From the NCBI GenBank assembly GCA_964016885.1, contig OZ024742.1, forward strand, positions 291,896,001 to 291,960,000: 64,000 nt of DNA. Direction: 5' to 3'. The translations under genes and the position numbers were made by a program. This document shows, one piece after another, positions 18,049 to 52,280 of the stretch. Source of the DNA: Eledone cirrhosa. Its lineage: Eukaryota. The stretch's first letter is position 1, and each line of letters opens with the position of its first letter. The notes under the pieces are model-generated. The model was not told the origin of the DNA and did no database searches. It was given only the letters and a program-made list of their open reading frames with translations.

Positions 18049-18114
18049 TATTTCATTATATATATTTCAGGGATATCATATTAACAATATGCTATGCCTT
18101 CCTCAGACAAAATA
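18049..18114 (-). ncRNA. Minimal type-I hammerhead ribozyme (PLE pseudo-LTR)
   Basis: Reverse complement of the motif at 20171-20236. Confidence 0.75.
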
Positions 18115-20170
18115 CAATATAAACAGTTTTATAGATAAATAGATTCGACATACCGTAACAACATCGACTTGTATTTGAAAAGGTTGATTTGGTAGTGAAA
18201 AAATTGTACACAGAGAGAAAGAAAGAGAGAAAAAAGGAAAGAAAGACAGAAAACGAAGAAAAAGAAGAAATGCATGGAACAAAATAGAGAGATGGAAAGA
18301 TAGATAAAGAGAAGAACTTCATGTAAAGAAACAGAAAGAGATATATATATATAGAGAGAGAGAGGAAATAGAGATAGATACATATATATAGAAAACTAGG
18401 TAGTGGGACGTCTGGTCCGTTAAATAACAACTGCTTAGTTAAAAATATAGTATACAATTGTAATGTTAATACTGACTCTAATTCTTTTAACTACGTCGGT
18501 TCCACATCGACGGAATTTAAACTTCGCTATAATAACCACAAGAATTCTTTCACAGATCCAAGCAAAAAATCTTCAACGGCACTATCAGGCGTACTATGGC
18601 AACTTAAGCTAGATAACGTTAGATATTCGACGGCTTGGAATATAGTCTCAAGAGGGATTCCTTTTAATTCATCCTCTGAGACATGTGACCTCTGCGCAGA
18701 GGAGATATTCTTTATACTAAAATCTAAAAATTCCCTTAATCTACGGACAAATTTATTGAGTTGTTGCAAACATAGATTAAACTCAACGTTTAAATATAAA
18801 TTTAAATTTAAAATGTAGTATATTTAGTTTGATTTATAATTATATGGGAAACTAGCCAATAAATCTCTGATTCTCTTTTTATTCTTTTTATTTTTATTTA
18901 AACATTCTTCATGAAAAATTAAGCTACCCTAAAAGTTGATGCTCCAAATATTTCGAATAAACGTTACACTAGATAAACTTCTATATTAAATATAAGAACA
19001 CATGTAGACCAAATTGGGCATCCTAAACTTTTTGAAATGATCTTTGCTAGATGCGATTTGATAGATAATTTTTGGCTTTATCTGTTTTTCGACTCTGATG
19101 TTTATAATGAACTTGGCAATATATTGTCAATTAATTTTGAAGGGTTGATCTTTGTGGTTTATTTTATTTTTATTATTGTAGTATTTCCTAATATTTTTAT
19201 TTTTAATATTTTTAATATGTAAATTTTTTAATATATAATATTTTTAATATGTAATATTCTTTCGTAATATTTTTTAGTTTTCTATTTTATTATTACTTAT
19301 TATTATTATTGTTATTTTTAGTTTTGTTTCTGATATATTTTTATTTTTATTAGTATATTGAAATCTGCTCTATTTTTGCTTGATAGATAATCTTGTAGAG
19401 TAAAGACAGAAATAGTAATATTGACTCTATATATATTTGTGTGTATATATATACACATATATGTATACTTAAATTTTTATACCACATTGAGAATGTTTTC
19501 CGTGAACCTAGGGTTTGCAGAGTTGATCATGTAGATTCACATAGATGTTTGTAATTATCACATAAACATATGAATTTTTTAAAAAACTAAACATAAGATC
19601 ATTAATTTTCACACATTGTGGATACATGTCTCATTCAGGAATACTGATATTTACAATGTAGTGGCTGGTTTTGTAAATACTAATACCTCTACATTAAAAC
19701 AGAGGTTTTTACGCCTCGCTTGTGTCTGGTTATTTTTAAATTTTTTTCTCTCTCTATATTTTTTTTCTCTCTCTATATAACAGCTGGTTTCTCTCCATAT
19801 ATCTCCCTTACATTAAGACTAGAGCTAAATAAATAAATAAATAAATAAATGTATCATTGATGCGTTATTCAACAGACGTCCCACTACCTAGTTTTCTATA
19901 TATATGTATCTATCTCTATTTCCTCTCTCTCTCTATATATATATATCTTTCTGTTTCTTTACATGAAGTTCTTCTCTTTATCTATCTTTCCATCTCTCTA
20001 TTTTGTTCCATGCATTTCTTCTTTTTCTTCGTTTTCTGTCTTTCTTTCCTTTTTTCTCTCTTTCTTTCTCTCTGTGTACAATTTTTTCACTACCAAATCA
20101 ACCTTTTCAAATACAAGTCGATGTTGTTACGGTATGTTGAATCTATTTATCTATAAAACTGTTTATATTG

Positions 20171-20236
20171 TATTTTGTCTGAGGAAGGCATAGCATATTG
20201 TTAATATGATATCCCTGAAATATATATAATGAAATA
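20171..20236 (+). ncRNA. Minimal type-I hammerhead ribozyme (PLE pseudo-LTR)
   Basis: Stem I TATTTTGT/ATGAAATA; core CTGAGGA; stem II AGG..CATATT-GTT-AATATG..CCT; GAAA; palindromic ATATATAT helix III; predicted cleavage after A20228. Confidence 0.78.
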
Positions 20237-49839: not shown

Positions 49840-51121
49840 GCGGTGGGGGGGGGGGGCATATTGTTTATATGCTTCAGCATGTACCCATGGGAGGTCGGGT
49901 ACCCTGTATTACTGCGTGACGCCAGAAGTCACGGTCGTGTGTCATTGACTTTGAGAGGTGTAGTTGGGTAAGGTCGGCTTTTATCACCTCATCCCAAGTC
50001 ATCTTGGGTCTCCCCACTCCGCGGTTTCCATCAACTTCTAGTGCTCTGCACCTTTTTATGCAGCTGTCATCCTTCATACGCATCACATGTCCATACCAGC
50101 GTAACCGCCTCTCCTGCACGCAGCATTTGATTCCTCTTATGCTCAGTCTCTCTCTCAATTCATTTATGCTTTGTCGTTCACGTATATTACTGTTACACAT
50201 CCATCGGAGCATGCAGGCTTCGTTTCTCTCTAATCTACGTAAGTCTTCCACCTTCAGCGCCCAGGTCTCATTACCATGCAACATCGCTGTTCGGATACAC
50301 GCATCATACAGTCTGCCTTTCATTCTGAGGGAGAAGCCTTTTGCAGCTAGCAGTGGTAGTAGTTCCCTAAACTTCTTCCATCCCGTTCTTACCCTAGTTA
50401 TTGTACTTTCTGAGCACCCACCTCCGTTGCTAATTCGGTCACCTAGGTAGCAGAAGCTGTCTACTGTTTCTACAGGGCCCTCCCAGAGATTGGTGGTACT
50501 TGTTTCCTGTGGCTGTTTGCTTGCTGTTTCAGCACAGCTGCTGCATGTGAATCCTACATTCTTAATTAAGCTTCCTGAGATCCCGCTACATCTCTTGTGT
50601 ACCCATTGTTTGCATTTGGGGCAAAGAATGGAGTTCCTACCTACACCTTTCCTACATACTGAGCAAGGCCATTTCCCTGAGGGGATCTGGGTTCTGTTTT
50701 CTCGTCTACTTATAAGGACCTTAGTCTTTGTCATATTGACTTTGAGGCCCTTTCTCTCTAGTCCCTGCTTCCAGGTTTGGAATTTATTCTCTAGTTCTAC
50801 CATAGATTCAGCTATGAGTGCGAGGTCATCAGCATACAGGAGTTCCCATGGGCATCCGGTCTTAAACTCCTCCGTTATTGCCTGCAGGACTATGATGAAC
50901 AGGAGAGGGCTAAGAACAGAGCCCTGGTGGACCCCAACCTGTACGCTAAATTCCTCGCTATACTCATTGCCAATCCTAACTTTGCTGACTGCTCCCCTAT
51001 ACATGGCTTGTACCGCTTTCACAAGCCATTCATCTACTCCTAGTTTTCTAAGAGCCCACCAGATTACTGCACGTGGAACTCTGTCAAAGGCTTTCTCAAG
51101 GTCGACAAATGCCAAGTAGAG
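49836..51121 (-). mobile_element. RTE LINE subfamily A, 5'-truncated, 3'UTR mostly deleted
   Basis: ORF 49874-51115 with FVDLEKAFD and YADD; near-identical to 32718-33866. Confidence 0.93.
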
Positions 51122-52019
51122 TATTTATATATATATATTTATATATATATATATTTATATATAAATATAAATATATATATTTATATATATATATATATAT
51201 ATAAATATATATATTTATATTTATATATATAAATTTATATATATATATATATATATATATATTTATATATTTATAATAACTACTACAACTGACTAACAAA
51301 CTATCCTCTTGCATTATCTACGTTAACTGCCGATGTTGTATTTTAATTTTAATTTTGCTTTGATTCTGTTTTAATATAATTTTAATTTTTGAATATAAAT
51401 TGCCATTCAGAAATAATATAACATATGTCACCCCACTGTACATCAATTTTATACATATGTACCTGTATGTCTCTTGCGTTGGAACGGAGGTCATGTATGT
51501 ATACAAACATTGAAAAATACTCCGAAGACTCCAAGCCTCGGTTTGGATGAAACAATTCTAAGCTAATAAATGGTTTGAACATAACTTTGATTCCTTTGAA
51601 TTCTATATAACTGCTCTGTCGAACAACTGATGTTATTACATTGAGCTATTTATGTTACTGGTAATAAGGTAGTAATAAATTACTGTCTTTCACTGTTTAG
51701 GGTTTAAAATATATATAACTATAAAAAGTTTTAGTATATACATAACCATAAATAGTATCCTTAATACTATATATATTTATATATTTATATATATATATAT
51801 ATATATATATATATTTATATATATATTTATATATACATATTTATATATTTATATATATATTTATATATACATATTTATATATATATATATTTATATATTT
51901 ATATATATATTTATATATTTATATATATATTTATATATATATATATATTTATATATATATATTTATATTTATATATTTATATATACACACAGACACATAT
52001 ATATATACACATATCCAGC

Positions 52020-52280
52020 GAATTTTCAACTGTCAAGATTGTTTTCCATGGTTATGTCACTATTTATAAAACAAATTTTGTATTTTATCTGATGAAAGCA
52101 CACCAAGATGGGCTTGGTCGCCCTTGAAATATATATAATTAAATAATTATGGTTTTATAAATATAGTTTCCATTTATTAATATATTGAATATTTACTCCA
52201 GTATCGTGTTGAGTGCTTTATATCAGTTATAAACTTTTAAGTTTGTTGGAATCCCAACAAATTAAATATAACTTCTACAT
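52020..52280 (+). mobile_element. Diverged Penelope pseudo-LTR/3' terminus fragment
   Basis: Homologous to about 20110-20367 (TATGGTTTTATAAATATAGTTTCCATTT...GAGTGCTTTATATCAGTTATAAA...CCCAACAA). Confidence 0.75.
52081..52145 (+). ncRNA. Minimal type-I hammerhead ribozyme (diverged PLE subfamily)
   Basis: TATTTTAT-CTGATGA-AAG..CCAAG(ATGGG)CTTGG..CTT-GAAA-TATATA-T-A-ATTAAATA; compensatory changes relative to 20171. Confidence 0.8.

What the first reader, a model, noticed from the sequence alone, without database searches (positions are those of the whole stretch)
18049..52145. Five Penelope pseudo-LTR hammerheads with covariation and an (AU)4 palindromic helix III
Seen: copies at 18049(-), 20171(+), 29399(+), 46224(-) and 52081(+) keep CTGANGA/GAAA, and only the free position 7 of the core varies (G, T, A). 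The second stem I pair changes G.U / G-C / A-U, and the stem II interior is wholly replaced in 52081 while pairing is retained. Helix III is ATATATAT, the same sequence as the insertion target. Inference: cleavage leaves an RNA 3' end reading ...AUAUAUAUA that could anneal to a nicked (TA)n target, coupling ribozyme processing to microsatellite targeting.
Basis: partly seen in the sequence, partly recalled or inferred. Interest (0 to 1): 0.75.

Follow-up and report, generated by a model that had tools for sequence, protein, structure and literature searches.

The report
Penelope hammerheads that insertion bypasses
These five motifs are predicted self-cutting RNAs of a known kind, carried in the ends of an abundant jumping gene; its copies almost never end at the predicted cut, so the cut does not aim insertion at TA repeats, and copying likely starts instead at two fixed sites further downstream.

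Summary
Five type-I hammerhead motifs lie in the pseudo-LTRs of a Hydra-clade Penelope-like element, and their stems covary across sister families. The proposed link between the (AU)4 helix III and (TA)n targeting fails its own test. Genome-wide, 28 copies run from helix III into (TA)n against 11,363 that continue, a background-level rate. Sister families with helix III AUGCGCAU (22,951 matches) also sit in (TA)n, and 0 of 25 published Hydra hammerheads have an AU-only helix III. Helix III is conserved as a palindrome, which fits dimeric folding. Copies end at two fixed sites, about +50 and +138 nt past the predicted cut; 54 of 54 resolved two-armed insertions pair one of each. A conserved bulged hairpin starts the 89-nt tail between the sites. 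Arm 5' ends pile up near -140, at an initiator-like motif, not at the cut. Likely mechanism: both cut DNA ends prime on uncleaved RNA. Hammerheads in Hydra elements, (TA)n bias and a one-sided tail are published. This scan noted the two-end rule and the hairpin before, on other DNA. Cleavage is untested.

The parts
18049..18114 (-). Type-I hammerhead motif, family A (N7=G); predicted cut 3' of 18057
18008..18414 (-). Short-ended inverted arm; ends at site 1 (about +50) in (TA)n 17784-18007
18415..20365 (+). Long-ended arm of the same insertion: end of the endonuclease coding region, 3' UTR, pseudo-LTR and tail; ends at site 2 (about +138) in (TA)n 20366-23475
20087..20093 (+). Initiator-like TCACT motif at -140 (A at 20089); arm 5' ends pile up here in the family; inferred RNA 5' end
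   Evidence: Inr-like TCACT named in PMC3846280
20171..20236 (+). Type-I hammerhead motif, family A; helix III 20220-20227; predicted cut after 20228
20278..20365 (+). Tail between site 1 and site 2; conserved bulged hairpin at 20285-20306, then a second, family-specific hairpin
29112..29157 (-). 46-bp inverted arm holding only the end of the tail (site 2 end); partner of the 29399 arm
29160..29507 (+). Arm ending at site 1; holds the hammerhead at 29399-29464 (N7=U, predicted cut after 29456)
46092..47676 (-). Arm ending at site 2; holds the hammerhead at 46224-46289 (N7=A, predicted cut 3' of 46232) and the 3' UTR
47666..49839 (+). Oppositely oriented arm with most of the RT/GIY-YIG ORF (ATG 47734; 93% identical to the intact ORF in L033); broken off at an RTE-like LINE fragment
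52081..52278 (+). Family E pseudo-LTR end: hammerhead 52081-52145 (predicted cut after 52137), hairpin 52195-52216, site 2 end; a separate insertion
28712..28965 (+).
43388..43625 (-). Second family B copy (CUGA at 43575)

Best explanation
The five motifs are hammerhead folds, predicted to cut only as dimers, in the pseudo-LTRs of Hydra-clade Penelope-like retroelements; insertions end at two fixed sites downstream of the predicted cut, likely because both ends of the cut (TA)n target prime reverse transcription on uncleaved RNA, one on each side of a structured tail. Shown: the family and its ORF motifs; the covariation; the palindromic, sequence-variable helix III; the two end sites (about +50 and +138); the one-short-one-long rule; the likeness of the two arms; a pile-up of arm 5' ends near -140 and none at the cut. 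Inferred: the element protein, possibly a dimer, binds the tail hairpins and chooses (TA)n. One RNA, or two RNAs from one donor, is copied twice. The cDNAs run through the intact hammerhead, often to an RNA 5' end at -140, and join head to head. The hammerhead would act at another step, such as trimming multimeric or read-through transcripts, or making circles.
For: Ends: 28 versus 11,363 at helix III; site 1 ends 1,038 versus 1,180 continuing; site 2 ends 2,388 versus 96 continuing. In the first 30 pattern hits, 16 end at site 1, 14 at site 2, 0 at the cut, and 11 of 11 head-to-head pairs are short plus long. Of 80 site 2 ends, 54 have a partner ending at site 1, 0 at site 2, 12 are unresolved and 14 have no partner. 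The longer arm can carry either end (L201, L199_200 versus L203, L033), so simple fold-back cannot make both arms. Paired arms differ by a median of 1 in 120 nt, against 5 between insertions (29 pairs). Arm 5' ends: 34 of 132 lie at -155..-111, 5 in the next 45 nt and 7 at -20..+20; 13-16 of 81 begin at -142..-137 by eye. Helix III: 40 of 47 inner pairs are complementary in 24 distinct strings, with double changes. The predicted monomer hammerhead fraction is at most 0.25%. The tail hairpin is present in six families, with changed upper stems, and by eye in 3 of 6 published Hydra consensi, degenerate in a fourth. In vitro, the Poseidon PAc protein cuts and extends both strands, starts at two internal sites that bound the tail, and does not need hammerhead cleavage (PMC11167929).
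Against: No cleavage or RNA data. RNAalifold found no consensus structure on the MAFFT alignment of 15 tails. The hairpin rests on a motif-anchored search, and single hairpins are weak (-0.1 to -7.3 kcal/mol; some do not fold as drawn). One family E pair has two long ends. PAc showed no strand difference in start-site use. 12 of 17 more-than-unit arms extend over 400 nt upstream of the cut in the upstream pseudo-LTR, beyond the inferred RNA start, so a second template or a template jump is needed. The -140 pile-up could be a junction or pausing hotspot. L248, L283 and L284 share one junction, so not all rows are independent. The exact patterns sample only some subfamilies.
Confidence: 0.7

Rival explanations
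1. One reading: hammerhead cleavage exposes ...AUAUAUAUA at the RNA 3' end, which anneals to nicked (TA)n and primes insertion.
For: The patch is a perfect 9-nt TA match, better than either real end site. 26 of 28 such genomic copies run into a TA tract and do not resume within 700 nt, about twice the same-subfamily rate at a control patch (7 of 30 inspected among 56, so about 13). Terminons offer a precedent for a hammerhead beside target-pairing repeats (PMC6431247, passages).
Against: These are 0.25% of copies. A non-cleavage TA-like patch gives 56 such ends. One of the 28 (L073) is an internal deletion anchored at helix III, and one (L069) resumes later. Family B (AUGCGCAU, 22,951 matches) sits in (TA)n: 48 of 49 sampled copies reach (TA)4 within 200 nt. 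0 of 25 published Hydra hammerheads have an AU-only helix III, although 24 of those families are listed as (TA)n-inserting. All 6 published Hydra consensi end about 35-115 nt past the cut (by eye).
Confidence: 0.03
2. The hammerheads cut the RNA into unit-length pieces that are ligated into circles, and the two fixed sites prime on the circle. Cleavage is then needed upstream of insertion but leaves no mark at the ends.
For: 17 more-than-unit arms exist, 12 reaching more than 400 nt past the upstream cut. The core and palindrome are conserved across families. The model was proposed in PMC4209133.
Against: A circle has no 5' end, yet arms pile up at -140. PAc insertion in vitro did not need cleavage. 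The AU homoduplex is weak (-3.2 kcal/mol). Both template types may coexist.
Confidence: 0.2
3. The hammerheads are inactive passengers, or act only as a structural or RNA-pairing element; the palindrome pairs two template RNAs, which supply the two arms.
For: Monomers are predicted to misfold. Dimeric PLE hammerheads cut poorly in vitro. Arms come in near-identical pairs. Craig et al. allow that hammerheads may simply parasitise PLEs.
Against: The catalytic core, not just the palindrome, is kept across diverged families, with only position 7 free, which argues for selection on catalysis.
Confidence: 0.07

Closest known systems
Hydra clade of C-terminal EN+ Penelope-like elements (Craig et al. 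2021, PMC8557442; section 11, passages, supplement Files S1, S2 and S7 read)
   Same: ORF motifs (RWR, DKT, CxCX5C linker, CxxC and CxH, no CCHH), canonical hammerhead in the pseudo-LTR, (TA)n targets, ends downstream of the cut.
   Different: The unit is 3.83 kb (Hydra elements are generally under 3 kb). Helix III is AU-only (0 of 25 listed). Copy number is high (at least 11,363 exact hammerhead matches). The tail is about 89 nt, against the 30-40 bp described for PLEs.
PLE hammerheads with palindromic helix III (Cervera and De la Pena 2014, PMC4209133; parts 1-2 of 4 read)
   Same: Type-I topology, short palindromic helix III, predicted dimer mode, many diverged families per genome, copies in opposite orientation 100-700 bp apart.
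   Different: Here helix III is an 8-nt palindrome and stem II is long and bulged; activity is untested.
PAc (Poseidon, Anolis) internal initiation (Frangieh et al. 2024, PMC11167929; parts 1-2 of 4 read)
   Same: Two internal start sites bound the tail, downstream of the hammerhead; AT-rich targets; hammerhead cleavage not used for the ends.
   Different: Different clade. Here the sites lie in the 5' UTR (ATG at +187), not in the ORF. The genome shows a strict one-of-each pairing that the in vitro assay did not report.
Terminon/Athena 3' hammerhead plus reverse-complement telomeric repeats (PMC6431247, passages)
   Different: There the repeats lie downstream of the hammerhead at the element's end. 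Here the AU patch is inside the fold, and copies do not end there.

Membership tests
Type-I hammerhead ribozyme | Conserved core CUGANGA / GAAA / UH | tested here: met
   5 of 5 copies; 95-100 of 100 homologues per position, N7 free
Type-I hammerhead ribozyme | Helices I-III with compensatory changes | tested here: met
   II.2 A-U 63 / G-C 34, II.3 G-C 59 / A-U 36, III.3 A-U 71 / G-C 28; 89.3% paired versus 79.6% shuffled. Rows were partly chosen by a structure scan, two rows are misaligned, and this is not an R-scape test.
Type-I hammerhead ribozyme | Match to an Rfam hammerhead model | tested here: not met
   No hammerhead family among 32 matches at E<=1; this lowers only the claim of membership in a curated Rfam family
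Type-I hammerhead ribozyme | Self-cleavage at H17 | not testable with these tools
   No assay possible
Dimer-type PLE hammerhead | Short self-complementary helix III, unstable as a monomer | tested here: met
   40 of 47 inner pairs complementary; predicted monomer fraction at most 0.25%; prediction only
Hydra-clade PLE | Single ORF, RT then C-terminal GIY-YIG | tested here: met
   744-aa open frame in L033; motifs match the Hydra alignments in the supplement by eye; Pfam gave no match
Hydra-clade PLE | RWK-like and DKT motifs; CxCX5C linker; CxxC and CxH; no CCHH | tested here: met
   RWR 45, DKT 126, CNCRDRSKC 603, CDLC 701, CKH 728; the only CxxC is at 701 (criteria)
Hydra-clade PLE | Insertion in (TA)n and a canonical hammerhead in the pseudo-LTR | tested here: met
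Hydra-clade PLE | Length generally under 3 kb | tested here: not met
   Unit 3,827 bp, from a long 3' UTR; a descriptive trait, not a diagnostic one
Hydra-clade PLE | Placement in the clade on an RT tree | not tested
   No tree was built; reference proteins were seen only in the supplement
EN+ PLE insertion architecture | Partial tandem, inverted 5'-truncated copy, one-sided tail | tested here: met
   described in PMC8557442 and PMC3846280
Terminon-like target pairing | Element ends at target-complementary repeats next to the hammerhead | tested here: not met
   28 of 11,391

The most novel reading that the evidence does not exclude
Hydra-clade elements insert by double priming on one RNA. A protein dimer clamps a clade-wide bulged hairpin domain and starts one cDNA on each side of it. 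Both cDNAs read through an uncut hammerhead to a strong stop at an internal promoter start (-140). From there they either join head to head or transfer to the downstream pseudo-LTR, like retroviral strong-stop DNA, which regenerates the long upstream repeat.
Probability: 0.35. Interest if true: 0.65.

Novelty: new member of a known kind. Interest (0 to 1): 0.36.

Why it matters
The role of hammerheads in Penelope-like elements is an open question. This family is a clean natural test of one attractive answer, ribozyme-made priming ends, and excludes it as the main route with over 11,000 copies. It also offers a young element with an intact ORF and precise predictions for an in vitro assay: two start sites, a conserved hairpin between them and an RNA start at -140. 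The hammerheads, the (TA)n bias and the one-sided tail are published. I did not find the strict pairing count, the tail hairpin or the -140 pile-up in the papers read (searches; only openly licensed papers are covered). The scan's own notes already describe the first two.

Tried and rejected
Rfam scan: only microsatellite-driven miRNA/snoRNA matches, no hammerhead. Single-strand folding of the motifs and tails: no better than shuffles. RNAalifold on 15 aligned tails: 0 pairs; the alignment is poor around the hairpin. Pfam: no family for the two main ORFs and one spurious weak match for the third. Sequencing runs: no RNA holder listed; laying contigs of two runs of unknown kind said nothing on RNA ends or circles. 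Idea that arm 5' ends pile up at the cut, which would show cleaved templates: not found. 7 of 132 lie within 20 nt of the cut, like the neighbouring bins, although single cases had suggested it (L207_208, L211, L190). Simple fold-back origin of the second arm: rejected, because the longer arm can carry either end. The structure scan requires stem I, so it cannot see copies that end at the cut; it was not used for that count. An early note of 15/15 short/long ends was a miscount; one search gives 16/14. R-scape is not available. The bioRxiv retrozyme preprint (part 1 of 5) did not bear on the test.
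Full report
Observation. All five motifs are present as described. Each reads as a type-I hammerhead: an 8-bp stem I, CUGANGA, a 30-31-nt stem II, GAA, helix III AUAUAUAU and A17. Position 7 is G, G, U, A, U, and the second stem I pair is G.U, G-C or A-U. Copies 18049 and 20171 are the two arms of one insertion. Some pairs are broken: the first stem II pair in 29399 and 46224, and one stem I pair in 52081. A U.U next to the core also occurs in many published Hydra hammerheads. 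Rfam does not detect the motifs, and single copies fold no better than shuffles.

Comparative support. A sequence profile run over the loci held at that point gave 311 hits, 127 distinct, of which 100 span all stems. Core positions are kept in 95-100 of 100; position 7 is free (U 70, A 15, G 11, C 4). Stem pairs are kept in 94-100 of 100 (two outer pairs are out of 99), with double changes at II.2 (A-U 63, G-C 34), II.3 (G-C 59, A-U 36), III.3 (A-U 71, G-C 28) and III.4 (U-A 56, C-G 29, U.G 12). On a 20-row alignment, 89.3% of cells pair against 79.6% in shuffles. These rows are related and were partly picked by a structure scan, so this is support, not a probability.

What carries them. The window lies in a 3.0-Gb genome with many 99-100% identical copies. 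Locus L033 shows the whole unit: (TA)n, an inverted truncated copy, a pseudo-LTR, a 744-aa open frame, a long 3' UTR, a second pseudo-LTR and (TA)n. The unit is 3,827 bp and the ATG lies at +187 from the predicted cut. The protein has RWR, DKT, a CxCX5C linker, CxxC and CxH and no CCHH motif, the features given for the Hydra clade. The window's own ORF at 47734 is 93% identical to it. Canonical hammerheads and (TA)n insertion are published for this clade.

Exact patterns give 28 copies that run from helix III into (TA)n and 11,363 that continue into stem I. Of the 28, 26 do not resume within 700 nt, one resumes after a long AT tract, and one is an internal deletion anchored at helix III. A TA-like patch 18-27 nt downstream, which is no cleavage site, gives 56 such ends. 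7 of 30 inspected belong to the same subfamilies, so about 13 are comparable. The helix III ends are thus within about twofold of background, at 0.25% of copies; a minor route is not excluded.

Helix III does not set the target. Family B has AUGCGCAU (22,951 matches), and 48 of 49 sampled copies reach (TA)4 within 200 nt. The AUAUGUAU variant has 28,080 matches. None of 25 published Hydra families has an AU-only helix III, although 24 are listed as (TA)n-inserting. What is conserved is self-complementarity: 40 of 47 inner pairs in 24 distinct strings. The monomer hammerhead fold is predicted at 0.25% or less; in three of the four family A copies the stem I 5' strand pairs instead with the core GAAA and helix III. 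This fits the dimer mode described for PLE hammerheads. The AU duplex is the weakest of the three computed (-3.2 versus -7.5 and -10.5 kcal/mol).

Where copies really end. In the first 30 pattern hits, 16 end near +50 and 14 near +138; all 11 head-to-head pairs have one of each. Pattern counts give 1,038 ends against 1,180 continuing at site 1, and 2,388 against 96 at site 2. Of the first 80 site 2 ends listed, 54 have a partner arm ending at site 1, none at site 2, 12 are unresolved and 14 have no partner. This set partly overlaps the loci, and three rows share one junction. Families B and E show the same two ends, with one long-long pair in E. Paired arms differ by a median of 1 in 120 nt, against 5 between insertions. 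The longer arm can carry either end, which excludes simple fold-back. The two insertions in the window with both ends intact follow the rule. Both sites have only a short TA-like overlap with the target; 10 of the first 100 site 2 junctions keep one further element G.

The tail. Just after site 1 lies a bulged hairpin (RCUC, upper stem, loop, 2-nt bulge, GAGY-RC) in six families, with changed upper stems, followed by a family-specific second hairpin. By eye it is present in 3 of 6 published Hydra consensi and degenerate in a fourth, and all six consensi end about 35-115 nt past the cut. Against: RNAalifold found nothing on a poor alignment, and the hairpins are weak.

Arm 5' ends. Of 132 arms, 34 begin at -155..-111, 5 in the next 45 nt, and 7 within 20 nt of the cut, like the neighbouring bins. 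By eye, 13-16 of 81 arms that reach this region begin at -142..-137, at the A of a TCACT motif, a motif called initiator-like in rotifer Penelope pseudo-LTRs. I infer an RNA 5' end there, and so a template that is uncut at the hammerhead. A pausing or joining hotspot remains possible. 12 of 17 more-than-unit arms reach over 400 nt upstream of the cut, so a template jump, upstream read-through or a circle is also needed.

Mechanism. Most likely the protein cuts both strands of (TA)n, binds the tail and primes once at each site on uncleaved RNA from one donor; the two cDNAs join head to head. This matches the in vitro behaviour of PAc: both strands are cut and extended, two internal starts bound the tail, and hammerhead mutants insert normally. 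The ends, pairing and pile-up are shown; binding, priming and the promoter are inferred; cleavage is untested.

Novelty. This is a new, very abundant member of a known clade. I did not find the pairing count, the hairpin or the -140 pile-up in the papers read (searches). Papers seen: PMC8557442 (passages, section 11, supplement parts 2, 3, 52, 53 and search passages), PMC11167929 (parts 1-2 of 4), PMC4209133 (parts 1-2 of 4), PMC3846280 and PMC6431247 (passages), 10.64898/2026.07.22.740005 (part 1 of 5). Their figures and the other supplements were not seen. Unreviewed notes of this scan describe the two-end rule and the hairpin on other DNA. I had those results before the look-ups, and the notes are not independent evidence.

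Noticed in passing
window 34755-36642 (+): Six 100%-identical 311-bp tandem units, each with a type-I hammerhead (helix III ACGCGU), ending in (TA)n and starting at a 200-N gap; looks like a retrozyme-type array. A related solo copy is in L083. Perfect identity beside a gap may partly reflect assembly.
   Followed up: partly
window 43815-45900 (-): A second, diverged Hydra-type element: GIY-YIG-end ORF fragment (36% identical to family A) and a degenerate hammerhead at 43905 with a long stem II. Duplicated pieces of its end face it across (TA)n at 43625-43720.
   Followed up: partly
window 46092-49839: The minus arm starts at unit position 2292 and the plus arm breaks off at 2316, next to an RTE-like fragment; the two nearly abut, as an inversion would leave them.
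   Followed up: no
loci L005-L166: At least a dozen further hammerhead families turn up by chance in flanks, nearly all with palindromic helix III (ACUAGU, ACUAAUUAGU, ACCACUGGU, ACCGCGCGGU, ACAAUUGU and others); the genome is likely to hold well over 60,000 such motifs.
   Followed up: partly
L036:3988-4052, L043:8971-9036, L114:21-269: A family with a different stem I (ACUGC/GCAGU) also has helix III AUAUAUAU; two copies reach (TA)n at +44 and +50, one continues into the tail hairpin, and one is cut off by the locus end.
   Followed up: partly
L036 near 8079(-), L039 near 7622(+): Two single hammerhead-like hits with a non-palindromic helix III reach TA repeats only 4-8 nt past the predicted cut; other families or chance.
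   Followed up: no
window 20116-20120 (+): A DPE-like AGTCG lies at +28..+32 from the inferred start A at 20089 (consensus recalled, not from a call; one base closer in other subfamilies).
   Followed up: no
L212, L213: Short tandem duplications of the tail plus the ORF start (unit 12-259 and 30-198) inside insertions, possibly from template jumps near the RNA 5' region.
   Followed up: no
window 341-2351, 23472-27654, 29495-33908, 38277-41791, 49836-51122: Many copies of two RTE-like LINE families (about 76% alike), one with a 1,012-aa open frame at 38277-41315, also embedded in (TA)n.
   Followed up: no
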